Shown in pieces: positions 23,301-43,612 of a stretch of 64,000 nt of DNA (position 1 is its first letter; each line of letters begins with the position of its first letter). The notes beneath the pieces were generated by a model, which saw only the letters and a list, made by a program, of their open reading frames with translations, had not been told where the DNA came from and made no database searches. Where the stretch lies: assembly GCA_903910705.1 (NCBI GenBank), contig CAIWAN010000104.1, forward strand, positions 2,453 to 66,452, written 5' to 3'. The position numbers and the translations under genes were made by a program. This stretch comes from an uncultured Candidatus Marinamargulisbacteria bacterium (GTDB lineage Bacteria > Margulisbacteria > Riflemargulisbacteria > GWF2-35-9).

Positions 23301-25059
23301 TGGACAGTCAGTAATGACACTCAATCTCAAAGACAATCAGCTTATCAATGCGATCGACTCGGACAAAATGACTTATTTCCTTGTGGGGGATCTCTCGTTG
23401 GATAGCCCCCTATCCACTACGTTTGATCTAGCGATAGTAAGTAGTAATGAAGTGCTTGTTGAGACACCCAATCAAGTAGTTTCGTCTCTACTACCCTATA
23501 GAACGGCTGAATTTAAAGTACAAGATTATGTTTCAAAAATCGTAATGACTGTTGCAAACAACCCCCAACAAGATGTTTTTCAGGGAGATAGTATTATTCT
23601 TCAAAAAATGTTGTTTGATCTCGACTTGGCTAGCGCAGCACAATTTACCTATATTGATTATTATTTTGATGGGACGGCCCTGATTGCGGACTTTTTGGCT
23701 GATGGTAATGATTCAGGGATTGCTCTGTATGGGTTATCTTCAAATATGACCCTGACTCAAGATTTCGAAAGAGATGTATTGCTCGGGGCAACAAAGATTG
23801 AGGCAACCAATAGTTGGTCAGATGGAAATCATCGCCTTAGGATTAATTTCTTGACGGAACAACCCCTTGTAACTCACAACTTATTTGCCCTAGTGGTTAC
23901 GCTAAATGGCGGGTCAACACCCGGCCGGCAATTTAGTTTTACCTCCCATCTCGAAGTGGTTAGTCAAAATCCCTATATAGGTGTTGTAGGTGCCGTCGCA
24001 AATAAGGATCAAACCTTTTCTACGAATACCGTAGAGATTATTAGTGAGTTTAATCCAAGTCAACCCAAGGTTAGCATGAACTATTATAATCGTTTCCCCA
24101 CAAAACTACCTCTTTCGTTTGATACATACACAAAATATGGATTCATAAATCGCACATCCCTTCATGTTAATGATGTTGTTGGCTATAGCTATTTAATAGG
24201 AACCATTCCGGGGCTAGGCGATGTAGCTTCTGAGCCAAAAGTTGATCTGATCGAGCCGTCCCCTATTAAAGTGGATGTTCAGGCAGACATACAAAATATT
24301 AGCCTATTGCCGGATCAACTTTACTATTTAACGTTACGGTCGATCGCAACTCGATCGGATAATTCAGGAACGTTATATTCTAAGCCTGTGGTCATTCCTT
24401 TTATGACAGACTTTTCTCCACCGCACCTCCCCAATTACCCGATAGATGTTCAAATTGATGGGACAAAACATTTGTTAAGCTGGGAAGATTTTTCTGACCC
24501 TGTCTCGGGAATAAAACGTTTTTATATAGAAGAAAAGAGTAACTATATTCCCTCGTGGAACCTAATAACCGTTTTGCCGCCAGTGAGCGATCCTATGCAA
24601 CCTAAAATTAGCGAGAGATATTATTCTACTCAGTCCAGAAAACCAAACATGTCCTATACCTATCGTGTTAAAGCCGAGAATCAAGCGGGGTTGATGAGCG
24701 ACTATATTTACTCAACGCCCCTTACAACCGCGGATACAGATAAAGTTCTCAGTAGTGTTAGTAACTACCCCAATCCTTTTAATTCAAGAAAGGAAAAAAC
24801 CACATTATTTTATTATTTGAATCAAGATACAGGTATCGAGGTGCGAATCTACGATTCAATAGGTCATTTTGTGCGAAAATTTAACTATACAGCTGGAATA
24901 ATTGGCAAGACGGTAAAGGGTGATTGTACAATGGAGTGGGATGGCAAGAATGAGCAGGGTGAATATGTTGCAAAGGGTGGATATTTTGTTGTTATTGAGG
25001 CGCCAGACACAAAGGGTGAGGATAAAAAAATTGTTCGTATGGTTGGGGTGATCCACTAA
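17329..25059 (+). CDS. giant (2576 aa) repetitive cell-surface protein with T9SS/FlgD-Ig-type C-terminal sorting domain
   Basis: N-terminal signal-like MRKSSCHFRVRFFALVVGILPFAF. At least 11 repeats of roughly 115 aa bounded by DRAGN...V(D/N)x(T/S)(P/A)P junctions (DNMPPT, DVTPPS, DNTPPT, DVEAPTG, DMTSPG, DITPPE, DFSPPS, DHTAPF, DKTPPS, FSPPHLP), each with a GWY...W...PY core. The last roughly 90 aa (NYPNPFNSRKEKTTLFYY...IYDSIGHFV...EWDGKNEQGEYVAKGGYFVVIEA) match the Por secretion tail / FlgD Ig-like family. Confidence 0.7.
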   Translation: MRKSSCHFRVRFFALVVGILPFAFTTITDLSFFSGGTQTQYVHVMQNQSIGFKDSANQVTINLSDEIQFKLNYSTKQYTVLKGSDWFDGNPTITWNNLAEISINYRLKWTNPFAQNMPILVTINDNEASITTSILTYNQEFVLTALTLNADQQFFVQDANGPWIKGGIGSGEGVVCLGNLAYKYDTTLHPLKDVSMCLYFDGVPDGSQVNVGTDGKFQFNNFLVPISATGVSKNCEIRVDLAGAIGSAILSSTVIPNTFNVQIDNMPPTWTETSLILVSDNNYESQGRLKPDDGYYGQLTVSVKVDKFNLVTDNAGAGVSTILSFRAEQVTVEGLDVTTSIQTREGVRDIQVLIFDKVHNSASLSVRVSVDVTPPSLFSVYLGQDNDTTINQTLPAVGWFNDETVSFSWTTPADFSLREWPYQVKNDPSPNWSAEQEGILSDNMFQLTRNTNQLYIEAGGNLAKTIKVRAVDRAGNIREASTTVFVDNTPPTLNVFRLKPDLTLEADSLELPEATPNIWYNNGDEVNWTWSAEDNGELPQKPYAYYYNKGNQNVLTSDFTNLSDIIIPSDEAPTGNMLTLLIRDKAGNVAISTKNVFVSETAPIMSYKDILFLSDMTDNGGDGVLAESLWYDQTTLDFVTTVNLQSFSAPLSKIYFKRSIDSTKNILDISTVQTITISSFEIISNSRTDITFEFVDRAGRGSQVFKNVESTTIVPINLNAVLVSDKDSSLQQDGIDPEPGYYDSPTISITWQKPNYWGRLRDQPYSTNINGEGWGTEFGTEGLQLSLTPNHAFSLIIRAADRAGNVVTNQLFVTVDVEAPTGSFEFIISEDVPHNGGVTPDIGWYSNHWIKGQFLSENVTDFFGLREARYFVKNLEVPYGQGSSSSLNVETFSNERGSVINYVSGAIADHAGNIISLQKPVYVDMTSPGAFSTEILPDATDNGSDGFFPEVGWYDEEAVNVKWMHSNDDAQLAEKPYRLSSTMRDWTPFQLAPFYDGLPVSEGGDMTRDVYVQVRDKAGNLTTESMTIRIDITPPEILTFNILNQAQTVVTWAENNGAVWLDQNYSLPLPSWYNTSNVTIAWVTPSENGQLTDRPYRYRAKYGQTSFSEWVSGDVFSADIHVSANENSPNIIYFQALDRAGNLAVITRSINVDFSPPSMSVQYVAVSNDVIREFIRPYVTTGDVLWITLNSQEVLIVTPTLVVNNGVYPYDFVEFVALERASDYVWTASIDLKKINGADGYFLYRDGSYQLDVKAYDNAGNKTNTLNGDVSFVVKNDSAPPGENFSLYEYIDLTRSDTYTRHEMVEFSVTIDSKIAELYLTERADLSTFERVKSSQSSFQRISRDAAKLYTFQPDLNTNEVMDGMKTVFLWTVLENGIGSDVSVSARIRYDHTAPFVSIEPDYMALQGRTDGVSLSIGTYHCRMTLSSNIVGYREEAIETPSWKLLLPAVGATFITVDLVPSLEDQSDRSKWVATYNSALSTASGNAIFLIAVTDNALNPTNQIKEGERFNIDLQAAGNPSFSVRSLDGRQGYTRFLTVNIEIQNDSSSTTYNYYKITEGLRYRPSFEAVNTPWESSPTIVSFRIDESFPPDEVLEGAKTIYVWSRINFYLNPEIIERRITYDKTPPSLNILVAPYLNKADSSVPESLRVTMSVSEELETTNSQLLLLKDESRSTLSTSNWVFDKKSGGVYTYVSTLDILGANKFTNISIQTMLSDWAGNTTNHTQAVRQLLSIKELKDEVPSAASFVEQGKPDFLVMSCVLSANDLAIHLRGIRVQSAGSYQPIDFNNFKVFLDGNNDGQFNYDSGYGFDSLKGMSSGGIDQTGIVSISFLSEEMIPSNSSKRFFIVADVSVGAVQRDTFTMKFLSYNAFEVADNEMVDYANAPNEFRTKQIMIVKTISGVYLVPQIGSQSSANRVTQNVNRGGSNQLLNKFTLYTDKGVALWSGIKLRYSGTIGTEHLNLSLYKDTNLNGLFELEADGQVSYPSNRFEVGQSVMTLNLKDNQLINAIDSDKMTYFLVGDLSLDSPLSTTFDLAIVSSNEVLVETPNQVVSSLLPYRTAEFKVQDYVSKIVMTVANNPQQDVFQGDSIILQKMLFDLDLASAAQFTYIDYYFDGTALIADFLADGNDSGIALYGLSSNMTLTQDFERDVLLGATKIEATNSWSDGNHRLRINFLTEQPLVTHNLFALVVTLNGGSTPGRQFSFTSHLEVVSQNPYIGVVGAVANKDQTFSTNTVEIISEFNPSQPKVSMNYYNRFPTKLPLSFDTYTKYGFINRTSLHVNDVVGYSYLIGTIPGLGDVASEPKVDLIEPSPIKVDVQADIQNISLLPDQLYYLTLRSIATRSDNSGTLYSKPVVIPFMTDFSPPHLPNYPIDVQIDGTKHLLSWEDFSDPVSGIKRFYIEEKSNYIPSWNLITVLPPVSDPMQPKISERYYSTQSRKPNMSYTYRVKAENQAGLMSDYIYSTPLTTADTDKVLSSVSNYPNPFNSRKEKTTLFYYLNQDTGIEVRIYDSIGHFVRKFNYTAGIIGKTVKGDCTMEWDGKNEQGEYVAKGGYFVVIEAPDTKGEDKKIVRMVGVIH

Positions 25060-26604: not shown

Positions 26605-27362
26605 GGTGGTGGGATACCCATTGTCATGTAACGGATGCTCGTTTTGAGGATGTTTACTCATTACTAGCTCAATCGAAAGCGGCGGGGGTAGGGACGGTTA
26701 TTGTGCCCTCTACAGACCTAGAAGATGCAAAAAAGGCGTTAGTTTTAAGTGAATCACATAACCTTTATTTTGCTGCAGGCGTTCATCCCCATGAGGCAAC
26801 AATCCTTTCATCGGAGACACTCGACGGTTTTGATCGGATTCTTTCACATCAACAATGCGTGGCCGTGGGTGAGATCGGCTTAGATTATCATTATGAGGGG
26901 ATCGAGAAAGCGACACAGAAGAAAGTATTAATCCAAATGATGGAGCTTGCTGTTTTAAAGAGGTTACCGGTGATTCTACATACACGAGACGCCGAGGCAG
27001 ATGTTTTCGCCACAGCGACTGAATTTCCTTTGGTCGGAGGGGTCTGCCACTCCTATACCGGCGAGGTTTCCTTGCTTCGAAAGTATTTGGATGCGGGTTA
27101 TGACGTTTCATTTAATGGGATGCTGACGTTTAAAGGGAGCGAGAATATTCGTGAGCTTGCTCGGTTCGCACCTCTTGACCGTATTGTGCTGGAGACGGAT
27201 GCGCCGTATTTGGCGCCGACTCCCCATAGAGGTAAGATGAATGAGCCGGCCAATATCCCGTTGATCGCAAAGAGTCTGGCTGAGATCAAATCAATCCCTC
27301 TTGACACTATCGCTAGCCAAACGTCTCATAATGCAGCCCGTCTTTTTTCAAAAGTCCGATGA
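26601..27362 (+). CDS. tatD: TatD-family metal-dependent hydrolase/DNase
   Basis: WWDTHCHV start, VGEIGLDYHYE motif and TatD metal ligands. 4-nt overlap with metG. Confidence 0.85.
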   Translation: MRWWDTHCHVTDARFEDVYSLLAQSKAAGVGTVIVPSTDLEDAKKALVLSESHNLYFAAGVHPHEATILSSETLDGFDRILSHQQCVAVGEIGLDYHYEGIEKATQKKVLIQMMELAVLKRLPVILHTRDAEADVFATATEFPLVGGVCHSYTGEVSLLRKYLDAGYDVSFNGMLTFKGSENIRELARFAPLDRIVLETDAPYLAPTPHRGKMNEPANIPLIAKSLAEIKSIPLDTIASQTSHNAARLFSKVR

Positions 27363-28444
27363 ATACGGTCATTCTTTTTCATCCAAAAAAAGGACTTTTC
27401 TTTGCGGCGATGACGCCACAGCAGATGGAGCGATGGCAACACTTTAAAGGGTTTGTCCTTTTTTCTTGGGAATATCGGCAACCCAATGCGGATGACCTGA
27501 TATCGTTTCTTCAGTATCTCTCTGTCAGCCTTTTAGGAAATCCAGATTGGTCACGTTTGATCAACGATTTTGTTAAGACCCATCAGGGGATTCAATTTCG
27601 AAGGCTACTCCGAGACGTAAGCACTGGGCTTCAGCAAGGCGTGTCTTTTGACAATGCGTTACGACAATTTCTGCCCCCTCAGTTGATCACAGCCGTTCTT
27701 TCAGCCCAGAAAAGGGGGCAATTATCTGAGGAGATCTCAACGATTATTGAGCACTATCGAAAAGAGACCGAGGAATACGCTAAGCGTAGATCTAAGCAAG
27801 TTTACCCGTTAACACTGGCTCTAGGCCTCGTTGGGCTTATCGCTTTGGTGGATGTTCAATTTGTTCCTGTATTGCGATCCCTTTTTGATAGCTATGGACT
27901 AAAGCCACCGTTTATCTTGAGTTTATTTAATCTTAAGGTACAGCTTGGGATGATTGGTGTATTGTTTGGACTAGGCGTGATGGCTCGTTGGGTTTATCAA
28001 CGATTGTCCTTTCATCAAAAAGCCCTTGTCCCGATACTGGGGACCATATCGATCCTTCAGCTTCATCAACATCTTCTCGATGCGTATCAAGAGTCTTTGA
28101 TTCGTGAATGCTCCTACGATTTAGTATTAGAGGAGCGGGTCGCGTCGGAAAGAAACTCCTTTATCAAGTTTGGTTTAAGCACCATTTCGGGGCGACTGAA
28201 GCAAGGGAAATCCCTTTCCTTGGCGATCAAAGATATTCCATCGATACGTGGATGGGTGGGTGGATGGGTTCGGGGTGGCTCTTTGAGTGCCTATCAACAG
28301 CAACTTCGACAAAAGGAAGCAGCGTTGCGAGATCGCCTTCAGGCCCTCCTTGTCGCGACCTTAATTGCCCTCGTCTCGCTCGTAATCACCGGTTTAGGGT
28401 TTCTAATTACGCTGCCGCTTCAATATGCGGATAAGCTGATCTAA
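27359..28444 (+). CDS. polytopic inner-membrane protein, divergent GspF/PilC (T2SS-F/T4P platform)-like
   Basis: 361 aa. N-terminal cytoplasmic segment with a T2SSF-like motif LLRDVSTGLQQGVSFDNALRQFLPPQLITAVLSAQKRGQLSEEIS, followed by TM helices. A second, weaker repeat (LSTISGRLKQGKSLSLAIKDIP) precedes the last TM. The assignment rests on architecture, not on strong sequence identity. Confidence 0.35.
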   Translation: MNTVILFHPKKGLFFAAMTPQQMERWQHFKGFVLFSWEYRQPNADDLISFLQYLSVSLLGNPDWSRLINDFVKTHQGIQFRRLLRDVSTGLQQGVSFDNALRQFLPPQLITAVLSAQKRGQLSEEISTIIEHYRKETEEYAKRRSKQVYPLTLALGLVGLIALVDVQFVPVLRSLFDSYGLKPPFILSLFNLKVQLGMIGVLFGLGVMARWVYQRLSFHQKALVPILGTISILQLHQHLLDAYQESLIRECSYDLVLEERVASERNSFIKFGLSTISGRLKQGKSLSLAIKDIPSIRGWVGGWVRGGSLSAYQQQLRQKEAALRDRLQALLVATLIALVSLVITGLGFLITLPLQYADKLI

Positions 28445-31400
28445 AAAATCAATTTTCCGCTAAATACGAGCGAGGTTATGGTGTAGTTATAGAGGCCTCC
28501 CTCGGCAGTGAGGTCTTTCTTTTCAACAATATTTCCTTCGGCTATGAAAATAAACTTTTCGATATTGCCGTTACTTCGTTCGGCCATGGGAATCTCAACA
28601 TTGGCTTGAATATTTCCTAGCGAAGAGATGTTATCAAGGGTTAGAATGTCGGTGGCTAAGGTCGTGTTGTTGACTTGATTGTTTTCTAGTTTTGCAAAAT
28701 CGTTAAGCCCAACGCCCCAACTATGGTCACGTCGATAGGTCGCAACAATTTTGCTGGTGTATTTCGGGGTGCTGACGACAATGGGTGTATATTGGGCGAC
28801 AAAGGCATCCGCATAGTTCTGGAACCCGACATTAATGATCTCATTGATATTCATCTTGTAGGTGTACGTGTAGCTAAGACTGAGGTCAGGTATGGGGGTT
28901 GATTTGATGCCGACACCGAGGCTATGAATCGTGAACGCTTTGTTGTTTTCTGTGGCAGGAAGTGTTTGCGTCGTTTCAAGGATACGTTGGTAGCCGTAGT
29001 TGGCAAGAAGAGAGAAATAGTTGTTTAGGGGTTGAGTGCCATCGAGATTGAGTGCGGTGGTGCGACTATTTAGATACGAATTATAGTTTGTTTTAATTTG
29101 TTCGAGGCTTATATTATCGATAGACGTTCGGAGATATTGAACGGTCTGAGCATATGAAAATCGTGGGGTGAATTGGGCGCCCCATGCCGTGAAGGACGTG
29201 TCACTCGCAAGCGTTTGAGCCTCTCGATACTTTAGCCCTTTTGTACTATCAATATAATCATCATAGACCCTGCCTATGTTGATGTTGGTGGGCTGAATTT
29301 TCTGCAAAACAACATTATTGAGAGCAAATGAATCCAGATGGGTTGTATTGGTTAAACGATTGATCGTGAGAGGGGCAAAGTTGCTTGTTGCAAGGTAGGT
29401 TGTTTCGTTTACATTTTCTTGAAGATCGTAATCGCTCGCATAACTGCTTCTTATCCAGTCCTCTATGTTCCAATTAAGGCTATGTTTGATATGAGATCGG
29501 GGATAGGTTTGGGTCGTATAGGCAATATCGGTGGTTCGATTCTCGGTTGTGGTTGAATTGTTTTCTGCGACGACAAAATCCCAGTCGTAACGAATAAAGG
29601 AGAAGGGTGTCCATGAGAGGCCGTAGTGGCTATCGCTTGCATAAGCGCTTCCCTGTGAGTATATGGTTGAATTTCGAGGCAAATCGTTTCGATTGTTTGA
29701 ATGAGAAAAGCGTCTCGATGCGGGTTGGAGCGTTATCGGTGCGATGTCGGACAGTAACGTTATGCCACTGATACTGTAATCTTGCCCTGAACTTTCACGA
29801 GAAATGGCGCCATTGCTTTCATTCCCATTTGAATAGTTATCTCGAAGTGCAATATTGCTCAGACCGAGCAGGCGGAAACTCACTTGGTTTGCCCTATTGT
29901 TACTATCGTCTGGAGTTTGGTTGAGCAGTAAGGAGGCTTTTTCTGTGCGACCCACCGAGCCTTGATAGCTCGGGTTATCAAGAACTATCAAGTTTAGAGC
30001 GGGATAAAGCGACCATGAGTGTTGAAAGTTTTGAAGGATGGTTTGGCTCATGTTCTGTGAAGGAGCTACGTTATTTGCATCAAAACTCGAAATACTTTGT
30101 GTATACTCGTGAGAGTAGAAGTGATTCGTGTCCAAGAAGGGAAGGGGTTTTAAGGCGAGTAAATACTGAGACCGTTGGAAACGATTTTCATTGAGTTTAT
30201 GGTTCGAGGTGTTAGGGTCGGTTTCAAATCCAGACGACTCGGCAAAGCTTGATTTTAACGTGAGTCGCTTTTCAAGGAGAGCCAGTTGATTGTCGAGAGT
30301 CCAAGCCGAAGCTTTTTTTTCTGATAAATTCACTCGATCTAAAAAGTCGTTTGTATATTGATAGTCACTTAGCGTATAGGTGGTGTAAAAATCTTGGGGA
30401 CCCCCACCTACGGAGATATTGTTGCGGTAGGCTACATTATCGTTGGCGCGAAGATTTAGACTGGTAGTATTGTCGGGATCGGACGCACTGGTTAGTCGCT
30501 CCCAGTGATAATTGATGTTTAGGTTGCTATCAGGAACATATTTTATGTCACTAATAAGTGTTTCATCCGATTGATTGAGCTTTTTCCCCTGCAAATTGAA
30601 AGCGTCCAGTTTTCGCTGATTCGTAAAATAGGTGGTGTTAACTTGTATGTTTTTGTAGGGACTAAAAGCACTAACCCAGTTAATAATGTTGGATCCTCCC
30701 GAGTAGGCGCTGACACCAAAAGGTTGATACTCTGGGTCGATCGAAAAGAGTTCAAGCCGAGTGTCCCCGTAATCGCCCTGAAGGTGGGTATTAAACTTCA
30801 CGGCATTTCCTTGTTTGCTATATTTTTTGACATTTTCGCCAGAAGCCGTTGAATAATAAGAATATTTGACGACAACAATGTCTTGAGTGCTTGGGTTCAT
30901 ATTGATAAAGGTGATCTTACCTGAGGTGTAATTGATGTAGTAGTGTTCATTCTTTATCGCGTTTGGTTGATTGTTGATATAGACGATCTCAGAGTTTTCT
31001 ACAATATTCGGAAAGGCGAGAGCGTAAGTCATTCCGTACTGACCATTTGCCTGAAGGGTATTCGATGTAACCAAAAAGCTTTTGGCTGATTCTTGGTTGG
31101 TTCGAGCGACATCTAAACTCAAATCAAAATTGGAACCAAAGGATTGTTGATAAACAGCTTCTGTTTGATCGTGAACAATATCTCCTGGATCGGGAACATT
31201 GGATTTATTGTATTGATAAGTGACTTTAAATAAGTCATAACCCGATAAATTGGAGGGAACCCCGTAGATCATGCCATCGGTGCCCAGATACTCGTTGTAA
31301 AGGATCACTTGGATTTGACCGTTACCAACCCCTGAGTCCGTGTATAGAAGCGTATAATCTTTTCCGTAGAGAAGTGTTGAATATATGGGACTAGATATCT

Positions 31401-33435
31401 TTTTGTATTCGATCCGAATTAGGCTATTGATTTTGTCAAACTTGATGGGTTGCTCAACAGACGACTGTATTCGATGAGACAATAAGCCATTTACGAGCAT
31501 ATTGTTCTCAAAGTTGCTGTCAGATCCGGTAAAGAACCATTGGGCAGGACCGTACTCTTTGTAGTAATAGTAGGTCACATTGAGGGTTCCAATGTCAGGG
31601 AGCTGCTCTTTCGAGATGACGAGCACCCCTTTATAGGCATTGATGCTTGCGGTGATCGTGGCGCCATTATAGGCAAGGATGACGGGTTCATCGGCAACAA
31701 TAGGCCACGCGTTTAGGGTGATGGTGATATCTGTGTTTAATGTCGAGATCACGAAGGTTTCAGACAACAACTTGGTGTTCAGATCTTTTTGAGCCTTAGC
31801 AAATTCCCGAAAATAGCCAAATTGGAGCTTGTAGTTTGTATTTAGCGGATTGGTTTGTTTTAGGTCTTCCCCCAAAATGGTTTGCAAATAATCAATATGA
31901 ATAAGGGATGTTGCTGGAATAGGATACACAAACATCAATCGTCCTGTTTGGCTGTCAACCCGATAGTCAACATTTCGATTGAGAGAAAGCCCGCCAACGA
32001 CAACTGTTTCCGATCCATCGAGAAGGGGAACGTGACGAAGATAATAAACAGCTTGTCGACCTTGACCCAAAAACTCTTCGGTTCGAGAGTTGGTTTTATG
32101 GGTCTGGTAGTCAATGTCAATGTCACGGAGGAAGGGGTCGGTTATTGTAATCTTACCAGTCCCGTATTGAATGTAATAATCCCTGTTTTGTTGAAGTCGA
32201 TGACCGTTCGCGCTAATCGTTTCGCTGCCAAGGATCACGGGGGCATAGGCAAGGGCGATGGTTTTTGATCCTGAGTTGAGACGATGGGATTCGTGAACAT
32301 CTTGAAGAAGCGGAACGATGTCGGGGATCGCGGCCCGATTATATTCACCACTTATACCGAGAAAATTGACGTGACTGGCGATGGGAATAAAATCTTCTAG
32401 AGGGTTCGTGTATTCATAGGTAAAGGTTAAGTTGTCTTGGTTGGTTTTCGGTGTTTTGAATCCAATCGTCCCTTGAAAATAATTGATCAGATAGTCACTA
32501 TTTTCAACGACAAGTTTGTCGTTCACATATACTTTTACGGAATTTTCAAGAATAGGCTTATATCGCAACGGATAGTCTGTTCCCCCATTTCCTTGCCGAG
32601 AGTAGGTGTCTGTTTGACTTTTGGCTTGGCCAAATCCAAAATTGTAGGAGAACGGCCCTTCACTCCCCACAACAGAGATCCCATCGACACGTTTGCTTAT
32701 GTTTGTAAAAGCACCCAATGTATATGTTTTGGTTAAATCACCAAAATTGATTTGGGTTTTTCGTATCCGTAAACTGACATCGGTTTTCTGTGGCATATTG
32801 GGTTCTTGAACAATGTTATAGTTAACCTCGGCTTCTTCGTTGATCCGTGCTTGTAAGAGTAAGTTGAAACGAGATTCAATTTGAAAATCGACCTCGCGAA
32901 TTTGTTGAAGCATGGTGGTATAGGCCGAGTCTTTCACGGCACTGGCTCGATTCCCCCCGACTCGAAGCGAATAGGCCTTTATTTCACCAAAACCCGACAT
33001 ATAAGGGGTAATTCGAACAGCATCTGATTTCTTGTTCTCTTCCCAATCTTCCCACCGGAAATCTTTCCAGAAAGAATCATGACGATTGGGTTTATCAGGC
33101 AACGTATCACTTTTCTCTTTTGACGGATCGAGCGTAATCGCTTCAACCGTTAGGCGAGTTGAACTTTTAGTTAAGGTAAAATGTGCTTCTTCATCTTCCT
33201 TAACCTCTATATTTTCAGACGGAATCAGATTTTCAGTAGCGATAACCTCCGTTGATTGAGTTGGTGCTTCGTTTGCTGTTGTTAAGTTTTCGGCAACATC
33301 TTGGGTCGGCTCAACAACGCTGGTCGATATAATCGCAGAAGGGGTCTCAATTTTGCTCTCAATTGAGAGAACGCTCTCTTCAGCAAGGCTTAGGCCTAGG
33401 AGGGTGATGGCGATGAACAATAGGCGAAATTTCAT
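28441..33435 (-). CDS. very large (1664 aa) signal-peptide outer-membrane beta-barrel protein, possibly SprA/Sov-like
   Basis: Cleavable signal MKFRLLFIAITLLGLSLAEE. Composition rich in N, Y, T, S and G with alternating hydrophobic residues throughout. Terminal residue is Phe (..SLVFSGKLIF), typical of beta-barrel OMPs. No repeats comparable to the adhesin. Confidence 0.6.
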   Translation of the reverse strand: MKFRLLFIAITLLGLSLAEESVLSIESKIETPSAIISTSVVEPTQDVAENLTTANEAPTQSTEVIATENLIPSENIEVKEDEEAHFTLTKSSTRLTVEAITLDPSKEKSDTLPDKPNRHDSFWKDFRWEDWEENKKSDAVRITPYMSGFGEIKAYSLRVGGNRASAVKDSAYTTMLQQIREVDFQIESRFNLLLQARINEEAEVNYNIVQEPNMPQKTDVSLRIRKTQINFGDLTKTYTLGAFTNISKRVDGISVVGSEGPFSYNFGFGQAKSQTDTYSRQGNGGTDYPLRYKPILENSVKVYVNDKLVVENSDYLINYFQGTIGFKTPKTNQDNLTFTYEYTNPLEDFIPIASHVNFLGISGEYNRAAIPDIVPLLQDVHESHRLNSGSKTIALAYAPVILGSETISANGHRLQQNRDYYIQYGTGKITITDPFLRDIDIDYQTHKTNSRTEEFLGQGRQAVYYLRHVPLLDGSETVVVGGLSLNRNVDYRVDSQTGRLMFVYPIPATSLIHIDYLQTILGEDLKQTNPLNTNYKLQFGYFREFAKAQKDLNTKLLSETFVISTLNTDITITLNAWPIVADEPVILAYNGATITASINAYKGVLVISKEQLPDIGTLNVTYYYYKEYGPAQWFFTGSDSNFENNMLVNGLLSHRIQSSVEQPIKFDKINSLIRIEYKKISSPIYSTLLYGKDYTLLYTDSGVGNGQIQVILYNEYLGTDGMIYGVPSNLSGYDLFKVTYQYNKSNVPDPGDIVHDQTEAVYQQSFGSNFDLSLDVARTNQESAKSFLVTSNTLQANGQYGMTYALAFPNIVENSEIVYINNQPNAIKNEHYYINYTSGKITFINMNPSTQDIVVVKYSYYSTASGENVKKYSKQGNAVKFNTHLQGDYGDTRLELFSIDPEYQPFGVSAYSGGSNIINWVSAFSPYKNIQVNTTYFTNQRKLDAFNLQGKKLNQSDETLISDIKYVPDSNLNINYHWERLTSASDPDNTTSLNLRANDNVAYRNNISVGGGPQDFYTTYTLSDYQYTNDFLDRVNLSEKKASAWTLDNQLALLEKRLTLKSSFAESSGFETDPNTSNHKLNENRFQRSQYLLALKPLPFLDTNHFYSHEYTQSISSFDANNVAPSQNMSQTILQNFQHSWSLYPALNLIVLDNPSYQGSVGRTEKASLLLNQTPDDSNNRANQVSFRLLGLSNIALRDNYSNGNESNGAISRESSGQDYSISGITLLSDIAPITLQPASRRFSHSNNRNDLPRNSTIYSQGSAYASDSHYGLSWTPFSFIRYDWDFVVAENNSTTTENRTTDIAYTTQTYPRSHIKHSLNWNIEDWIRSSYASDYDLQENVNETTYLATSNFAPLTINRLTNTTHLDSFALNNVVLQKIQPTNINIGRVYDDYIDSTKGLKYREAQTLASDTSFTAWGAQFTPRFSYAQTVQYLRTSIDNISLEQIKTNYNSYLNSRTTALNLDGTQPLNNYFSLLANYGYQRILETTQTLPATENNKAFTIHSLGVGIKSTPIPDLSLSYTYTYKMNINEIINVGFQNYADAFVAQYTPIVVSTPKYTSKIVATYRRDHSWGVGLNDFAKLENNQVNNTTLATDILTLDNISSLGNIQANVEIPMAERSNGNIEKFIFIAEGNIVEKKDLTAEGGLYNYTITSLVFSGKLIF

Positions 33436-33454: not shown

Positions 33455-33691
33455 TTATTCTGCAAGGATGTCGATGACTTTGTGGCGAGTATTCGCCCCA
33501 CGAATTATTGTGAATCGAGACTTAGCCAGATGCAAGGCTTTTGACAAAAGCTTAATAACGGCTAAATTTGCTTTCCCCTTTTCAGCGGCAGCGGTGACCT
33601 TGATGATATAGGTATCTTGACTAATCTCTTCAAGCTTATTTTTACGAGCATGAGGCGTGACGTGAATAGAGAGAGTTTTCAAAATTGACAT
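33455..33691 (-). CDS. yggU: DUF167/YggU-family protein
   Basis: 78 aa. LSIHVTPHARKNKL...YIIKVTAAAEKGKANLAVIKLLSKAL is a YggU signature. Lies immediately after yggT. Confidence 0.75.
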   Translation of the reverse strand: MSILKTLSIHVTPHARKNKLEEISQDTYIIKVTAAAEKGKANLAVIKLLSKALHLAKSRFTIIRGANTRHKVIDILAE

Positions 33692-33954
33692 TAAAGAAAA
33701 AATCGAATGATCCGAAACATAACATCCGGAATCTTTCCAAGTACAAAGAAAGCAAGAAGCGGCGAAAAATCAATACCACCATATTGGAGCGGAAGTTGTC
33801 GAAAGAGTCGTAGGTAAGGCTCTGTTATGGAGGTCAAAAGACGAGCGAGAGGATGATAATAATTGTGCGGGATCCAAGACAGAATGATCTGAATAATGAG
33901 CAACACCTCATAAAGCTGGAATAAATAGGCAATCGATTGGGCGAAGGTGTTCAT
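33691..33954 (-). CDS. yggT: YggT-family integral membrane protein
   Basis: 87 aa. IQIILSWIP...ITEPYLRLFR...GGIDFSPLLAFFVL is a YggT/Ycf19 motif. Confidence 0.75.
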   Translation of the reverse strand: MNTFAQSIAYLFQLYEVLLIIQIILSWIPHNYYHPLARLLTSITEPYLRLFRQLPLQYGGIDFSPLLAFFVLGKIPDVMFRIIRFFL

Positions 33955-34754
33955 GAACGGCTCAGTTCATCTGCCCGATTATTGGCAGCATGAAGGGTAT
34001 TGTTGAGGATAAGTCCAAGATCAGATGCACCCAGTATTTTCATGGCAGCTTCGGTTGTTCCTCCTGGTGATGTGACTTGACGAATCAGCTCGGTAGGGGA
34101 CTTATCGGATTGCTGAAGCATGATAGCCGAGCCTAGCATGGTTTGGGTCAGGAGTTTTTTTGCTTCGTCATAAGAAAACCCTAGCTTCATCGACTCTGTG
34201 GCCATCGCGTCTATGAAATGATAGAAATAGGCTGGACCACTCCCGCTGATGGCGGTTAGCGCATTCATCAGCGTTTCTGGGATGGTGGTAATCTCGCCAA
34301 TAGACTGAAATAGAGATCGAACAAAGGCTTGGATCTCTGTGGGACAAGAGGCTCCAAAAGAGAGCCCCGTCATTCCTTTGCCAATGAGTGCAGGTGTATT
34401 GGGCATGACTCTTACGCAGACACAGGCAGGAAAAGCTTCCTGTATCGTTGAAAGGGTTATCCCTGCTGCGATAGAAATAATTACCGTTGTTGTTGAAATA
34501 CCTTTTCGTAGTTGCTCTGAAGCCTGCGCAAACTGTTGAGGCTTTACGGCGATAATGATGGCCTCATAGGTTCCTAAATCAGCATAAGAGTCTAGCGGTT
34601 TTATGCTAGGATAGCTTTTCTGAAGAAGCTGAGTGCGATCAACGTTCTTTTCAAGGACGCCGATCGAAAGATCAGGCGACGAGAAAAGAGCTCCTTTTAG
34701 AAGCGCTTCTCCCATATTTCCGCAACCTAACAATCCCAAGGATCGAATGGTCAT
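33951..34754 (-). CDS. proC: pyrroline-5-carboxylate reductase
   Basis: Rossmann LGLLGCGNMGEALLKG, the catalytic VTSPGGTTEAAMKIL motif, 267 aa. Confidence 0.9.
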   Translation of the reverse strand: MTIRSLGLLGCGNMGEALLKGALFSSPDLSIGVLEKNVDRTQLLQKSYPSIKPLDSYADLGTYEAIIIAVKPQQFAQASEQLRKGISTTTVIISIAAGITLSTIQEAFPACVCVRVMPNTPALIGKGMTGLSFGASCPTEIQAFVRSLFQSIGEITTIPETLMNALTAISGSGPAYFYHFIDAMATESMKLGFSYDEAKKLLTQTMLGSAIMLQQSDKSPTELIRQVTSPGGTTEAAMKILGASDLGLILNNTLHAANNRADELSRS

Positions 34755-34757
34755 CCT

Positions 34758-35210
34758 TTAGTTGTTGTTGATCAAATTAACGACGATCTCTTCGTTGGCG
34801 TTGGCTGAAACCGGCTCACCTGCTTGATGGAAATCTTCTGTAATTTGAGTTCGCTCAGGGGTAATGAGAACGAGGTTGTCGCCTAATTTTGCCATGTGAC
34901 CATTCAGCGAATAGATCGTACCTGAAATAAAATCCATAAACCGTTTCGTATTCATTTTGTCTAGATTTTCAAAATTCAAGATCATACAGGTGTCATCTTT
35001 GAGCATATTGGTCACGTGAAGTGCATCAGAATACTTTTTTGGGGTAAGGATCTTGATCTCTGAAGACGCCTTGTTCATGCTTACGGGGAACTTAATCATG
35101 GTTTGCCCCTTTGAACTACTAGGTTTTGATGCATTTGATTGTAAAGGCAGGGTATCCTCGAGACCTAAAAATACTTTAAACTTATCCATTAACTTGACTT
35201 CTTTTTTCAT
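34758..35210 (-). CDS. sepF: cell division protein SepF
   Basis: MILNFENLDKMNTKRFMDFISGTIYSLNGHMAKLGDNLVLITP is a SepF/YlmF core. Strong GGAGGAGAAAA RBS upstream of the ATG at 35208-35210. Confidence 0.8.
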   Translation of the reverse strand: MKKEVKLMDKFKVFLGLEDTLPLQSNASKPSSSKGQTMIKFPVSMNKASSEIKILTPKKYSDALHVTNMLKDDTCMILNFENLDKMNTKRFMDFISGTIYSLNGHMAKLGDNLVLITPERTQITEDFHQAGEPVSANANEEIVVNLINNN

Positions 35211-35221
35211 TTTTCTCCTCC

Positions 35222-35881
35222 TTAAGAAAATAGTTCGGTTCCGATTCGAACCATGGTTGCTCCGTCTTGAAGAGCAACCCTATAATCGTTGCTCATTCCC
35301 ATCGACAGTTGTATGTATTCAACGCCTTGATCATCACGAAGTTGGTCAGCCAGAGACTTTAAGCCAGCAAACACCGAATGTTGGATGTGTTCATCCGTTG
35401 TGTAGGGTGCCATGGTCATATAGCCAACAAAGTTGACGAACGTGTAATCGAAAACACGCCGAATGCTTAATTTAATGTCTTGGGGACTAAATCCGTGCTT
35501 ACTGGTTTCCCCTGAAATATTGATCTCTAGTAAAATATCAGGACGCTTTCCTTGAGAATGGGCTTCTTTGTTGACCGCCTCAAGGGTCTCCCAGCTACTA
35601 ATGGCGTGAATGACCGAAAAAAGGGCGACGATCTTTTTGGCCTTATTTCGTTGAACTGGACCAATAAAATGCCACGTAATCGAATAGGCCTCAAGGGCTT
35701 TAATTTTGGGTTCTGCAACTTGAAGGCGATTTTCCCCCAAGTGTGTCAACCCCGCCTGCACGGCCGCCTCGGTCTCTGCAAGAGATAGCGTTTTTGTGAC
35801 AGCCACAAGTGTGGCCGATGGTGCGGTTTGAGCGAGAGCGATTTGAGCTCGCACGTCCGCGATCTTATTGGCTAAAGACAT
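35222..35881 (-). CDS. yggS: YggS/YlmE-family PLP-binding (PLP homeostasis) protein
   Basis: HFIGPVQRNKAKKIV motif and alanine-racemase-like TIM barrel. 219 aa. Confidence 0.85.
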   Translation of the reverse strand: MSLANKIADVRAQIALAQTAPSATLVAVTKTLSLAETEAAVQAGLTHLGENRLQVAEPKIKALEAYSITWHFIGPVQRNKAKKIVALFSVIHAISSWETLEAVNKEAHSQGKRPDILLEINISGETSKHGFSPQDIKLSIRRVFDYTFVNFVGYMTMAPYTTDEHIQHSVFAGLKSLADQLRDDQGVEYIQLSMGMSNDYRVALQDGATMVRIGTELFS

Positions 35882-42379: not shown

Positions 42380-43612
42380 TTATTTAGCCTTCTCTGGATG
42401 GTTAATGAGCTCCATCAAGTGAAGGACGTTCGTGTTGTCGACGAACCGTGCAAGGAGCGGTTTGATCTCGATGGCAGCTTTATCGGTCTCGCCTCGCACA
42501 ACCATGGCTTTGATCCGAGAATAGTCGGGCCATATGGCTCTCTCGGCTTCAAGACTGAGTCCGAGTTTGTCGCTTAATTGTTCAAGCTTCTTGAGCTTGG
42601 CTATCTTTTTTACGACGTCTTCGTCATTGGGATTTAGGATATAGGCTTTTTTCATGTCTTCAAGGGCGAGCAGGAAGAACCCTTCTCGGTATTTTTCTAT
42701 GCCCGTTGCATGCCAATCGGAGGCCACATTTTGTTGAAGGTCATTGATGATCTGCCCAATTCCGAGATTAATCGAAAATCGATTGTTGGCACCGAGCTCA
42801 CTATTGGAGTAAGCATAATCAAAACGAAGCCCAGCGAGTTCACTGCTAAAGCCAAAATTAGTGGACTCATAGTTTAACCCCCCGCGGATCGTAAGCAACG
42901 GGTGAAGTTGATATTCTGCGCCCAAAAACCACGTGTTGGCGTCGTTCTCCAGATCATAAGAGAGGCAAAAGCCTTTATCCCGAAAGGCGACACCGCCACG
43001 AATAACGGGGGTAAACTTGTCCGTGGAAAATTTATCCATTTGATAATCAAGGATATTTTGAACCGTGCCTGCGATGGTCAGAAAGGATAAGGGCCGAAAC
43101 ATGACACCCAAATCGCCCACAATCCGAGCATCCGTATTCGTGTATAACGTGCGGGTTACATACTTTACAGAGGTGCCAATAGAGAGGTTCGGCAATAATA
43201 TGGGTTGGGCATACGAAAGTCCCATCGAGGTCTTTGAGTCATAAAACGTCCCCTGAGCGACGTTATATTGATCACGAAGTTCCATGGGTGAAGATTGAAG
43301 CGATACATACGAAAAACCGATATGATTATCCACCATAGGAATGACACAGTTAAATGCGGTAAGCTGATACTCGCCGAATAAGTCGGATTGAAAAAAACTT
43401 CCTTCGATATTTCCGATCTGTAACATTCCGGCCGGATTGCTGTATACCGCAGACGAATCGTTTGCCACAGCGACAAAGGCACTGCCCATCCCAATGCTTC
43501 GAGCACTGGCACCGTAACTCAGAAAGGCACTGGGTTGTCCCCCGTTAAGGCTAAAGCCAAACGAGAAAAGAAAAGCACTGAAAATACATAATTTAATTTT
43601 TGTGTTCAACAT
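42380..43612 (-). CDS. FadL/PorV-like outer-membrane beta-barrel protein with C-terminal helical extension
   Basis: Signal peptide MLNTKIKLCIFSAFLFSFGFS. N-terminal hatch-like motif SARSIGMGSAFVAVANDSSAVYSNPAGM (NPA motif as in FadL/PorV/PorQ). Beta-strand pattern over about 300 aa, then a roughly 100-aa charged helical tail. Confidence 0.35.
   Translation of the reverse strand: MLNTKIKLCIFSAFLFSFGFSLNGGQPSAFLSYGASARSIGMGSAFVAVANDSSAVYSNPAGMLQIGNIEGSFFQSDLFGEYQLTAFNCVIPMVDNHIGFSYVSLQSSPMELRDQYNVAQGTFYDSKTSMGLSYAQPILLPNLSIGTSVKYVTRTLYTNTDARIVGDLGVMFRPLSFLTIAGTVQNILDYQMDKFSTDKFTPVIRGGVAFRDKGFCLSYDLENDANTWFLGAEYQLHPLLTIRGGLNYESTNFGFSSELAGLRFDYAYSNSELGANNRFSINLGIGQIINDLQQNVASDWHATGIEKYREGFFLLALEDMKKAYILNPNDEDVVKKIAKLKKLEQLSDKLGLSLEAERAIWPDYSRIKAMVVRGETDKAAIEIKPLLARFVDNTNVLHLMELINHPEKAK

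What the first reader, a model, noticed from the sequence alone, without database searches (positions are those of the whole stretch)
28441..33435. 1664-aa outer-membrane beta-barrel protein, candidate SprA/Sov-type translocon for the CTD adhesin
A cleavable signal peptide, uniform beta-strand-compatible composition (N/Y/T/S/G-rich), a C-terminal Phe and very large size point to a giant beta-barrel. It lies 3.4 kb downstream of the CTD adhesin, with the GspF-like gene in between. The largest known single-chain barrels are T9SS SprA/Sov translocons (about 2400 aa). A smaller relative would fit a divergent lineage.
Basis: inference. Interest (0 to 1): 0.55.

Follow-up and report, generated by a model that had tools for sequence, protein, structure and literature searches.

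The report
Giant outer-membrane barrel of Margulisbacteria
This gene encodes a 1664-residue, previously undescribed outer-membrane protein found across the Margulisbacteria/Saganbacteria phylum, probably a very large beta-barrel decorated with small Ig-like domains, which may be the exit channel for secreted proteins carrying a type-IX-like sorting tail.

Summary
The ORF is real: 28441-33435, 1664 aa. It lies on the minus strand. It is the last gene of a yggS-sepF-proC-yggT-DUF167 operon and converges on the adhesin-MetRS-TatD-GspF-like genes.

It has a signal peptide, no cysteine, an invariant C-terminal Phe, five ~60-aa Ig-like repeats and about 33-40 long beta-strands. AlphaFold plus Foldseek hit only outer-membrane barrels. 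SprA ranks first, but weakly (TM 0.26).

No SprA, LptD, usher, Omp85 or TamB sequence signature is detectable. It is therefore not a demonstrable SprA/Sov family member.

It belongs to an unannotated family:
- 142 clusters at E<=1e-30.
- 51 species genomes, essentially all Margulisiibacteriota.
- Distant relatives in Armatimonadota.

- In 33 of 51 genomes the next gene is a subtilase whose C-terminus is a T9SS type-A sorting domain.
- The same domain ends the window's 2576-aa protein.
- PorV/PorQ-family genes occur in the window and, in one genome, in the subtilase operon.

Evidence for a rival reading: the family also sits beside fatty-acid, LPS and Mla genes, which fits a general envelope-biogenesis role.

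Verdict: a giant outer-membrane barrel is well supported. A T9SS-like translocon role is plausible (~0.4) but unproven.

The parts
28441..33435 (-). Gene for the 1664-aa giant outer-membrane protein (whole ORF including stop)
   Evidence: ORF list and translation. Orthologues 35-100 % identical and 1664-1714 aa long.
33382..33435 (-). Signal peptide, residues 1-18 (MKFRLLFIAITLLGLSLA, predicted cleavage A18|E19)
   Evidence: Read from the sequence. N-termini of the homologues have the same layout. Cleavage is inferred.
33079..33381 (-). Variable T/S/E/P-rich linker, residues 19-119, not conserved among orthologues
   Evidence: Consensus is 'x' over this stretch. Composition. pLDDT 27-31.
32590..33078 (-). 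Conserved N-terminal module, residues 120-282. It holds the W-x2-F-x-W-E-x-W-E motif, then amphipathic long strands (190-199, 202-210, 217-223). These are probably the first barrel strands.
   Evidence: Invariant columns. Strands with low pLDDT when modelled without the C-terminal half. Amphipathicity. Conserved with Saganbacteria.
32401..32589 (-). Ig-like repeat R1, residues 283-345 (..DYLINYFQGTIGF..)
   Evidence: Pfam DUF2460 E 2.6e-6 at 286-343. Repeat alignment and HMM. pLDDT 76-87.
32095..32274 (-). Ig-like repeat R2, residues 388-447
   Evidence: AF2 small beta-sandwich.
31876..32061 (-). Ig-like repeat R3, residues 459-520
31558..31740 (-). Ig-like repeat R4 (divergent), residues 566-626
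30850..31041 (-). Ig-like repeat R5, residues 799-862
   Evidence: NCBIfam TIGR02217 stretch 810-855..
28444..30834 (-). C-terminal beta-barrel region, residues 868-1664, with about 38 DSSP strands. Residues 954-1664 (28444-30576) hold 33 strands at pLDDT mostly 80-93.
   Evidence: AF2 model m3b25ce8386c1. Foldseek hits are exclusively OM barrels. Strand list.
28444..28473 (-). C-terminal beta-signal-like strand ..SLVFSGKLIF, with invariant F-x-G-x-x-x-F and terminal Phe
   Evidence: Invariant F1657/G1659/F1663 in the numbering (real numbering +1). Relatives end ..FEGTLNF..RLTANF..INLHF.
33455..35881 (-). Upstream genes of the same operon: DUF167 (33455-33691), yggT (33691-33954), proC (33951-34754), sepF (34758-35210), yggS (35222-35881)
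   Evidence: Pfam/NCBIfam. ORFs. The same order is found in L001 and L002.
27359..28444 (+). Convergent T2SSF/ComGB-like inner-membrane protein (361 aa, one T2SSF domain). Its stop overlaps the stop of the giant gene.
   Evidence: Conserved next to the giant gene in the 8 Marinamargulis/Termititenax-type loci.
17329..25059 (+). 2576-aa surface protein. Its last ~85 residues (about 24766-25017) are a T9SS type-A-like C-terminal domain. Candidate cargo.
   Evidence: FlgD_ig. TIGR04183 at 22.7 bits (cutoff 23), plus matches to the CTD ends of the PorU and PorZ models. An HMM of subtilase CTDs hits it at E 2e-15, and it is the only such domain in the window.
42380..43612 (-). 410-aa PorV/PorQ-family (FadL-like) outer-membrane protein with a TPR-like tail. 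Possible partner; the link is tentative.
   Evidence: NCBIfam NF033709 E 3.8e-20, 72.7 bits, below the cutoff of 90. Remote homologues carry Pfam PorV PF19572.

Best explanation
SHOWN. The gene encodes a Sec-exported, cysteine-free protein of 1664 aa. It belongs to a large, unannotated family that is single-copy and phylum-wide in Margulisiibacteriota (Marinamargulis-, Riflemargulis-, Termititenax, Saganbacteria/WOR-1).

WELL SUPPORTED. It is an integral outer-membrane beta-barrel of exceptional size, with at least about 33 confidently predicted strands and possibly about 40 or more. Five ~60-aa Ig-like (DUF2460-type) domains and one further domain are spliced between long strand hairpins in the N-terminal half. 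It ends in a BAM-type C-terminal Phe strand.

INFERRED MECHANISM.
- BAM inserts the chain into the outer membrane.
- The strands, which are spread along the whole chain, close into one wide barrel.
- The Ig-like inserts form a cap or collar on one face, as the inserts of SprA do.
- The barrel serves as the outer-membrane conduit for folded proteins that carry the T9SS type-A-like C-terminal domain.
- In this window the cargo would be the 2576-aa surface protein. In most of the phylum it would be a CTD-bearing subtilase encoded tail-to-tail with the barrel gene.
- A PorV/PorQ-family barrel may collect the cargo.

It would thus work like SprA/Sov without being a detectable member of that family.
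For: Barrel:
- AF2 C-part mean pLDDT 73, with 80-93 over residues ~954-1664. All-beta, with 10-26-residue strands joined by mostly short turns.
- 52 Foldseek PDB hits at E<=1e-3. Essentially all are OM barrels; the one non-barrel exception listed is ApoB100 (rank 23, prob 0.21). SprA 8gl8/8gl6/6h3i/6h3j rank 1-3 and 5.
- Porin_4 and OMP_b-brl hits in two relatives.
- Invariant terminal Phe. No Cys. Signal peptides in the homologues.
- N-terminal long strands are disordered when modelled without the C-half, whereas the Ig-like domains are confident. This suggests the long strands belong to the barrel.

Family:
- 1734 clusters at E<=1e-3 and 142 at E<=1e-30.
- All named members are Margulisbacteria hypothetical proteins.
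- 51 species genomes, one locus each.

Link to CTD proteins:
- A subtilase is the immediate convergent neighbour in 33 of 51 genomes, behind at least 4 different upstream genes.
- Its C-terminus scores above NCBI's cutoff for TIGR04183 (34.6 and 23.5 bits against 23). It also matches the CTD end of the PorU model.
- The same domain ends the window's 2576-aa protein (E 2e-15).
- 42 of 61 loci hold exactly one CTD gene within 10 kb of the barrel gene. Two control loci without the barrel gene hold none.

PorV:
- PorV_fam E 3.8e-20 in the window.
- PorV_fam E 2.2e-24 in L025, where the gene overlaps the start of the CTD-subtilase gene and the pair converges on the barrel gene.
Against: - No sequence similarity to SprA/Sov by Pfam, NCBIfam or a family profile against PDB sequences.
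- The structural match to SprA is poor (TMq 0.26, TMt 0.16). Its E-value is only ~10-fold better than for BtuB.
- The model was built in two halves from 11 sequences, with pTM 0.41. Four of the five models scored below pLDDT 62.
- The neighbour genes are convergent, not co-transcribed.
- The 33 subtilase pairs are phylogenetically related, so they are few independent events.
- In this window the CTD gene is separated from the barrel gene by MetRS and TatD.
- The PorV-like gene sits in a housekeeping string conserved for other reasons.
- PorV/PorQ-like (FadL-like, UPF0164) proteins also occur in lineages without known T9SS, such as Elusimicrobia.
- FlgD_ig-type C-terminal sandwiches also occur in fervidolysin-like subtilases, where they need not be sorting signals.
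- Seven genomes have neither a CTD gene nor a T2SSF gene next to the barrel gene.
- No GldK/L/M/N, PorU or SprE was looked for or seen.
- Other contexts point to envelope lipid biogenesis.
Confidence: 0.4

Rival explanations
1. A core envelope-biogenesis barrel. The protein would be a lineage-specific functional analogue of LptD or another lipid/LPS-handling outer-membrane channel. It would be conserved because every cell needs it to build the outer membrane. The CTD neighbours would be incidental.
For: - Single copy and phylum-wide.
- In about 25-30 Saganbacteria-type loci it directly follows fabD-fabG-acpP-fabK-fabF on the same strand, with a 13-bp gap in L003.
- An Armatimonadota-labelled relative lies between two LPS heptosyltransferase genes and mlaE-mlaF-mlaD.
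- LptD structures are among the Foldseek hits (ranks 36 and 49).
- In this window and in L013 it adjoins cell-division genes (sepF cluster; ftsA-ftsZ). This fits a housekeeping envelope role.
Against: - No OstA/LptD, Omp85 or TamB signature at E<=1.
- The N-terminal part is an array of Ig-like domains, not a beta-jellyroll bridge.
- LptD ranks far below SprA and the TonB-dependent receptors.
- The fab linkage is absent in the Marinamargulis, Riflemargulis and other lineages, whereas the subtilase linkage survives changes of the upstream gene.
- Whether these genomes have a canonical LptD was not tested.
Confidence: 0.2
2. A self-anchored surface protein. The C-terminal barrel would merely anchor the protein, or form a large general pore as SlpA does in Deinococcus. 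The Ig-like array would be the functional, exposed part (adhesion, glycan binding, surface-layer scaffold). The neighbouring subtilase would mature or shed it, as SphB1/NalP-type subtilases do for other surface proteins.
For: - Five Ig-like repeats resemble carbohydrate-binding or decorative domains of phage tail proteins.
- SlpA of Deinococcus, a 30-strand barrel, is among the structural hits (ranks 11 and 13).
- A subtilase is the most constant neighbour.
- A YadA-like adhesin lies directly upstream in L047.
- Relatives carry extra Fn3, SH3 or GW modules at the N-terminus.
Against: - The barrel is far larger than any anchor needs; autotransporter and intimin anchors have 12 strands.
- The Ig-like domains are interleaved with long strands rather than forming a separate passenger.
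- There is no SLH or coiled-coil stalk as in SlpA/OmpM.
- This reading does not explain why the neighbour's conserved feature is a T9SS-type CTD.
Confidence: 0.25
3. A true but extremely diverged orthologue of SprA/Sov, that is, a homologous member of the T9SS translocon family that has shrunk by about 700 residues.
For: - SprA chains are the top Foldseek hits for the C-part and appear weakly for the N-part (ranks 9, 13 and 20).
- Strands are spread along the whole chain with folded inserts, as in SprA.
- T9SS-type CTDs and PorV/PorQ-family proteins coexist in the phylum.
Against: - No PF14349 or TIGR04189 hit for the window protein.
- No PF14349 hit in 30 diverse family members.
- The family profile does not find SprA among PDB sequences at E<=10.
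- TM-scores of 0.16-0.26 are in the range of unrelated barrels.
- A profile-profile comparison with an SprA alignment could not be run.
Confidence: 0.08
4. Not a closed membrane barrel at all. Instead it would be an extended beta-sheet or groove protein of the AsmA/TamB or similar type that bridges the periplasm.
For: - Many strands are rather polar and only weakly amphipathic.
- pTM is only 0.41, and four of five AF2 models were poor.
- An ApoB100 beta-belt appears among the hits, at prob 0.21.
Against: - It has a cleavable-type short signal peptide rather than a signal anchor.
- It has an invariant terminal Phe beta-signal.
- All high-probability fold hits are closed OM barrels.
- There is no DUF490/AsmA hit.
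- Porin_4 and OMP_b-brl hits occur in relatives.
Confidence: 0.05

Closest known systems
SprA/Sov, the type IX secretion translocon (F. johnsoniae SprA, PDB 6H3I/8GL8; 36-strand barrel, the largest known single-chain barrel)
   Same: - A very large single-chain outer-membrane barrel.
- Strands distributed along the chain, with folded inserts between them.
- Top-ranked structural match.
- It coexists in the phylum with, and is often encoded next to, proteins carrying a T9SS type-A-like CTD and PorV/PorQ-family barrels.
   Different: - About 700-800 residues shorter.
- No detectable sequence homology.
- TM-score only 0.16-0.26.
- The inserts are DUF2460-type Ig-like repeats.
- The host phylum belongs to the Terrabacteria (sister of Cyanobacteria), not the FCB group.
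- No GldKLMN-type motor genes were seen or searched for.
Deinococcus radiodurans SlpA / OmpM-type proteins of diderm Terrabacteria (PDB 8AE1, 7ZGX; 30-strand barrel)
   Same: A large barrel in a Terrabacteria outer membrane. It is among the structural hits. The host phylum is reported to use OmpM-type tethers (10.1101/2021.05.31.446380).
   Different: No SLH domain and no coiled-coil stalk. It carries Ig-like inserts instead. TM 0.18-0.25.
LptD (LPS translocon, 26-strand barrel plus N-terminal beta-jellyroll)
   Same: A large barrel. Relatives are encoded beside fatty-acid, LPS-core and Mla genes. Weak structural hits.
   Different: No OstA_N/LptD domains. The N-terminal architecture is different. 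It is about twice the size.
Phage distal-tail / tail-tube Ig-like decoration domains (Pfam DUF2460, TIGR02217 Rcc01695 family; YSD1 tail tube 6XGR; cyanophage A4 tail 9K09)
   Same: The five ~60-aa repeats share the D-Y-x-I-x-Y-x2-G-x-I-x-F signature and a small beta-sandwich fold. DUF2460 is hit in 26 of 30 family members, with best E 3.4e-17.
   Different: Only this sub-domain is shared. There are no phage genes around, and here the domains are inserts in an outer-membrane protein.

Membership tests
SprA/Sov T9SS translocon family | Sequence match to TIGR04189 (cell surface protein SprA) or Pfam PF14349 (SprA_N) | tested here: not met
   No hit at E<=1 for the window protein in Pfam or NCBIfam. 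No PF14349 hit among 30 diverse family members at E<=1. The family profile finds no PDB chain, SprA included, at E<=10.
SprA/Sov T9SS translocon family | Single 36-strand barrel with an extracellular cap and a lateral opening, superimposable on 6H3I | tested here: inconclusive
Type IX secretion system (system level) | Cargo with a TIGR04183 type-A (or type-B) C-terminal sorting domain | tested here: met
   The neighbouring subtilases of L028 and L021 score 34.6 and 23.5 bits (cutoff 23). The window's 2576-aa protein scores 22.7 bits and matches the CTD ends of the PorU and PorZ models. It is the same domain by a locally built HMM, E 2e-15.
Type IX secretion system (system level) | PorV/PorQ-family outer-membrane shuttle | tested here: inconclusive
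   NF033709 PorV_fam gives E 3.8e-20 (72.7 bits) in the window and E 2.2e-24 (86.6 bits) in L025. Both are below the curated cutoff of 90. The equivalog models PorV and PorQ are far below cutoff. The superfamily also occurs in Elusimicrobia and in UPF0164 proteins.
Type IX secretion system (system level) | GldK/L/M/N (PorK/L/M/N) motor-ring, SprE/PorW, PorU sortase | not testable with these tools
   Only the 64-kb window and +/-10 kb flanks of homologues were available, and none of these genes was seen there. Whole Margulisiibacteriota genomes could not be scanned.
LptD / OstA | OstA_N beta-jellyroll plus LptD C-terminal barrel domains (PF03968, PF04453) | tested here: not met
   No Pfam or NCBIfam hit at E<=1. 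LptD structures appear only at ranks 36 and 49 with TM 0.13-0.18.
Fimbrial usher (FimD/PapC) | Usher domain PF00577 with plug and N/C periplasmic domains | tested here: not met
   No hit at E<=1. No usher among the top 50 structural hits.
Omp85 (BamA/TamA) and TamB/AsmA | POTRA repeats plus Bac_surface_Ag barrel; or signal anchor plus DUF490/AsmA | tested here: not met
   No such Pfam or NCBIfam hits. The N-terminus is a short cleavable-type signal peptide.
Outer-membrane beta-barrel proteins (general) | Signal peptide, all-beta transmembrane strands, C-terminal aromatic beta-signal, barrel fold | tested here: met
   Signal peptide. Invariant terminal Phe with an F-x-G-x-L-x-F pattern. AF2 all-beta model. 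Foldseek probability 1.00 to many OM barrels. Porin_4 and OMP_b-brl in relatives. Barrel closure itself was not verified.

The most novel reading that the evidence does not exclude
Margulisiibacteria, and perhaps other diderm Terrabacteria such as Armatimonadota, possess a type-IX-like secretion route. Its outer-membrane translocon would be this family: a single-chain barrel of about 40 strands, as large as or larger than SprA's 36. It would be either unrelated to SprA or so diverged that it marks an ancient split of the T9SS. A CTD-bearing subtilase would take the place of the PorU sortase, and a PorV/PorQ-like barrel would act as shuttle.
Probability: 0.25. Interest if true: 0.85.

Novelty: new variant of a known kind. 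Interest (0 to 1): 0.62.

Why it matters
T9SS and its 36-strand SprA translocon are regarded as confined to the Bacteroidota/FCB group, and SprA is cited as the largest known single-chain barrel (bioRxiv 10.64898/2026.03.07.710327).

This family is unannotated, phylum-wide and predicted to have a barrel of similar or greater size. Its host is the sister phylum of Cyanobacteria. It is repeatedly encoded beside proteins with T9SS-type sorting domains.

If the link holds, three things follow:
- The origin of CTD-dependent secretion would move outside the FCB group.
- There would be a second, independent example of how a giant barrel passes folded proteins.
- BAM-mediated assembly of very large barrels would gain a compact (1300-1700 aa) model that can be modelled and tested.

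If the rival reading holds, the family would be a missing envelope-biogenesis component of diderm Terrabacteria. Either way the family deserves a name and a structure.

Tried and rejected
Two overlapping halves were used instead.
- Model coordinates are not exposed. Strand number came from the DSSP strings, and barrel closure, lateral gate and cap could not be examined.
- phmmer and the family profile against PDB sequences gave nothing useful.
- LptD, usher, BamA/TamA, TamB and TonB-dependent receptor membership were considered and rejected for lack of any domain hit.
- An operon link with the 2576-aa protein and the GspF-like gene was rejected, because the genes converge.
- PorV-like proximity in the window (9 kb) was discounted as evidence after the same housekeeping synteny was seen in two other genomes.
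- Literature searches for Margulisbacteria/Saganbacteria with T9SS or secretion systems returned nothing. A TIGR04183 search was uninformative.
- The last protein search, with the CTD alone, was meant to size the cargo repertoire. It returned only five short fragments.
- The promoter/terminator scan of the operon region was at background level.
- No SprA sequence could be obtained with the tools, so no profile-profile (hhalign) test against SprA was possible.

Full report
OBSERVATION

The ORF at 28441-33435 exists and encodes 1664 aa, but it is on the minus strand. What the sequence shows:
- The N-terminus (MKFRLLFIAITLLGLSLA|EES) has the form of a cleavable signal peptide.
- Residues 19-119 are a T/S/E/P-rich stretch that is not conserved among orthologues.
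- The mature part is rich in S, N, T and Y and has no cysteine.
- The chain ends ..SLVFSGKLIF. The final Phe, a Gly at -5 and a Phe at -7 are invariant in 11 full-length homologues.

The gene converges on the + strand string 2576-aa protein - MetRS - TatD - T2SSF-like. Its stop codon overlaps that of the T2SSF-like gene. On its own strand it follows yggS, sepF, proC, yggT and DUF167 with a 19-bp gap.

WHAT KIND OF PROTEIN

Pfam and NCBIfam give only weak hits. These are to an Ig-like sub-domain of phage distal-tail proteins (DUF2460/TIGR02217), at residues 286-343 and 810-855. Nothing is found among PDB sequences, either with the single protein or with a family profile.

Internal comparison defines five ~60-aa repeats: 283-345, 388-447, 459-520, 566-626 and 799-862. 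They share the signature P-I-l-x-x-S-E-x-V-x-V-N-x(6-8)-D-Y-x-I-N-Y-x-x-G-x-I-x-F.

The chain exceeds the modelling limit, so I modelled residues 105-950 and 465-1664 separately, with the 10 orthologues as alignment.

N-part:
- It shows confident small beta-sandwiches for the repeats (pLDDT 75-92).
- These are separated by long strands that are poorly predicted in isolation.

C-part:
- Mean pLDDT is 73 and pTM 0.41.
- It is all-beta.
- From residue ~954 to the end there are 33 strands of 8-20 residues at pLDDT mostly 80-93.
- About five more strands lie between 853 and 942, and two or three very long ones at 753-795.

Adding the long N-terminal strands (190-223, 356-385, 535-565), the chain contains roughly 40-48 long strands. 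I could not inspect coordinates, so the number that forms one closed barrel is unknown.

Foldseek of the C-part against the PDB returns 52 hits at E<=1e-3. Essentially all are outer-membrane barrels; the one non-barrel exception listed is ApoB100 at rank 23 (prob 0.21):
- SprA (8GL8, 8GL6, 6H3I, 6H3J) at ranks 1-3 and 5.
- Then TonB-dependent receptors, SusC, Deinococcus SlpA, MtrB and LptD.
- All TM-scores are low. For SprA, TMq is 0.26, TMt 0.16 and identity 7-8 %.

The N-part finds only Ig-like arrays of phage tails, pilins and adhesins. Two relatives hit Porin_4 and OMP_b-brl.

I conclude that this is an outer-membrane beta-barrel protein of unusual size with Ig-like inserts. It has no close structural or sequence relative among known barrels.

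THE FAMILY

The word-indexed search found 11 full-length orthologues and four shorter Saganbacteria/WOR-1 proteins. The latter align from residue 187 to ~1000.

A profile of residues 120-1010 was searched against 1.84 billion cluster representatives. It found 1734 proteins at E<=1e-3 and 142 at E<=1e-30. Most of the top-listed hits that are not fragments are 1300-1870 aa with end-to-end coverage. Every named one is a 'hypothetical protein' of Candidatus Margulisbacteria/Margulisiibacteriota.

In the GTDB species genomes the family occurs in 51 genomes, one locus each:
- Marinamargulisbacteria (the window is ~87 % identical to one of them).
- Riflemargulisbacteria.
- Termititenax.
- Many Saganbacteria/WOR-1.
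- A few MAGs with evidently loose NCBI labels.

Weaker relatives have the same layout: signal peptide, conserved N-terminal strands, DUF2460-type repeats, an S/T/N-rich C-terminal strand region and a terminal Phe. They occur in Armatimonadota-labelled and unclassified bacteria. DUF2460 is hit in 26 of 30 diverse members. SprA_N is hit in none.

GENOMIC CONTEXT ACROSS THE FAMILY

I called ORFs in 57 loci and clustered them.

In the Marinamargulis/Termititenax group (8 loci including the window) the arrangement of the window is conserved down to 36 % identity.

In 33 of the 51 species genomes the gene immediately downstream, tail-to-tail, is a ~650-800-aa subtilase with an I9/fervidolysin-type propeptide. 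This pair persists behind different upstream genes:
- fabF of a fabD-fabG-acpP-fabK-fabF operon in 25 genomes.
- A histidine kinase in 3.
- A YadA-like adhesin gene.
- Other genes.
- In Riflemargulis L005, one gene lies in between.

The C-terminal ~90 residues of these subtilases form one domain family. An HMM built from them hits the C-terminus of the window's 2576-aa protein (E 2e-15) and its orthologues, and nothing else in the 64-kb window.

NCBIfam identifies the domain as the T9SS type-A sorting domain TIGR04183:
- 34.6 and 23.5 bits in two subtilases (cutoff 23).
- 22.7 bits in the window protein.
- It also aligns to the CTD ends of the PorU, PorZ and a T9SS-dependent protease model.

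Across 61 loci, 42 contain exactly one such CTD gene, always within a few kb of the barrel gene. The two 21-kb control loci fetched for another gene contain none.

The window also encodes, 9 kb away, a 410-aa PorV/PorQ-family protein (NF033709, E 3.8e-20, 72.7 bits, below the cutoff of 90). In the window this proximity is part of a housekeeping synteny (ftsH-porV-like-TPR-...-gap-pgk-...). I give it little weight.

In L025, however, a 364-aa PorV_fam protein (E 2.2e-24, full-length match) overlaps the start of the CTD-subtilase gene. That two-gene unit converges on the barrel gene.

Remote homologues of the PorV-like protein carry Pfam PorV (PF19572). They also carry UPF0164 and occur in Elusimicrobia, WOR-3 and Marinimicrobia. 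The superfamily is therefore not strictly diagnostic of T9SS.

CONTEXT POINTING ELSEWHERE

- The co-directional fab operon in Saganbacteria.
- An Armatimonadota-labelled relative between two LPS heptosyltransferase genes and mlaE-mlaF-mlaD.
- ftsZ-ftsA (L013), an AmiC-like amidase (L015) and the sepF cluster (window) as neighbours.

These fit a constitutive envelope component and keep an LptD-like or structural role alive.

MECHANISM

Shown:
- The protein is exported.
- The family is conserved, single-copy and restricted to a diderm Terrabacteria lineage. Margulis- and Saganbacteria are reported to have OmpM-type tethers (10.1101/2021.05.31.446380).

Well supported: a giant outer-membrane barrel with Ig-like inserts and a BAM-type C-terminal signal.

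Inferred, about 0.4: the barrel is the outer-membrane conduit for proteins carrying the T9SS type-A-like CTD, and so functionally analogous to SprA/Sov.
- The CTD-bearing subtilase would be either a principal cargo or, by analogy with the CTD-bearing peptidase PorU, the CTD-processing enzyme.
- A PorV/PorQ-like barrel would be the partner.

Rivals:
- A self-anchored surface or pore protein matured by the subtilase (0.25).
- An envelope lipid/LPS biogenesis barrel (0.2).
- A true diverged SprA orthologue (0.08).
- A non-barrel beta-groove protein (0.05).

COMPARISON WITH THE KNOWN

SprA is described as the largest known barrel, with 36 strands (10.64898/2026.03.07.710327). The present protein may match or exceed that strand number in only 1664 residues.

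It fails the sequence tests for SprA, LptD, usher, Omp85 and TamB membership. It passes the general tests for an outer-membrane barrel.

At system level:
- One T9SS hallmark (type-A CTD) is met.
- One (PorV/PorQ) is borderline.
- The motor and sortase components could not be examined.

No paper in the searchable library links Margulisbacteria or Saganbacteria with T9SS or any secretion system.

VERDICT

The structural inference (giant barrel) is supported. 'SprA/Sov-type' is supported only as a functional analogy of moderate probability, not as family membership.

The family is new and unannotated. I rate it a new variant of a known kind, with interest 0.62.

Noticed in passing
window 42380-43612 (-) and 41792-42361 (-): A 410-aa PorV/PorQ-family (FadL-like) outer-membrane protein with a TPR-like C-terminal tail, followed by a 189-aa TPR protein. 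The pair sits after ftsH and is conserved in other Marinamargulis genomes. Remote homologues in Elusimicrobia fuse the barrel to long TPR arrays.
   Followed up: partly
window 14945-16432 and 16425-17255 (+); also 10089-10874 and 10871-11605 (+): Two FliG-like genes (495 and 276 aa, far below the FliG equivalog cutoff) lie directly upstream of the 2576-aa CTD protein. A FliG_C gene also precedes its orthologue in L001. A MotA/MotB pair lies 4 kb further upstream. No other flagellar genes are in the window. A rotor-like protein next to a giant CTD surface protein is odd and unexplained.
   Followed up: no
window 27359-28444 (+): The T2SSF/ComGB-like protein has only one T2SSF domain (GspF/PilC normally have two). 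It is the last gene of a string 2576-aa protein - MetRS - TatD - T2SSF. This order is conserved in 8 loci, and the gene's stop codon overlaps the stop of the giant barrel gene.
   Followed up: partly
L021 13851-16061, L028 13730-15694, L005 15921-18323 and 30 other loci: A subtilase with an I9/fervidolysin-like propeptide and a T9SS type-A-like C-terminal domain is the commonest neighbour of the barrel gene in Saganbacteria-type genomes. The window's lineage lacks it at this position.
   Followed up: yes
L059 (relative P0138, 2513-6343): A 1276-aa distant relative labelled Armatimonadota has an extra Fn3-like N-terminal module. It is flanked by two LPS heptosyltransferase genes and mlaE-mlaF-mlaD.
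   Followed up: partly
L013 14431-16985; L015 14961-17240: In other lineages the barrel gene abuts ftsZ-ftsA (convergent) or a 759-aa AmiC/CwlD-like amidase. Together with the sepF cluster in the window, this is a recurring neighbourhood of cell-division genes.
   Followed up: no
L047 1379-5494: A 1371-aa protein with nine YadA-head repeat matches lies directly upstream of the barrel gene in one WOR-1 genome.
   Followed up: no
window 34758-35210 (-): SepF is encoded in a yggS-sepF-proC-yggT-DUF167 cluster, as in Gram-positive bacteria and cyanobacteria. This is consistent with the Terrabacteria affiliation of this diderm organism.
   Followed up: no
window 48630-49799 (-): An AAA_14/DUF4143 ATPase gene, a type often found in mobile or defence contexts, sits among housekeeping genes. 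Its ORF overlaps the neighbouring radical-SAM ORF by about 55 bp.
   Followed up: no
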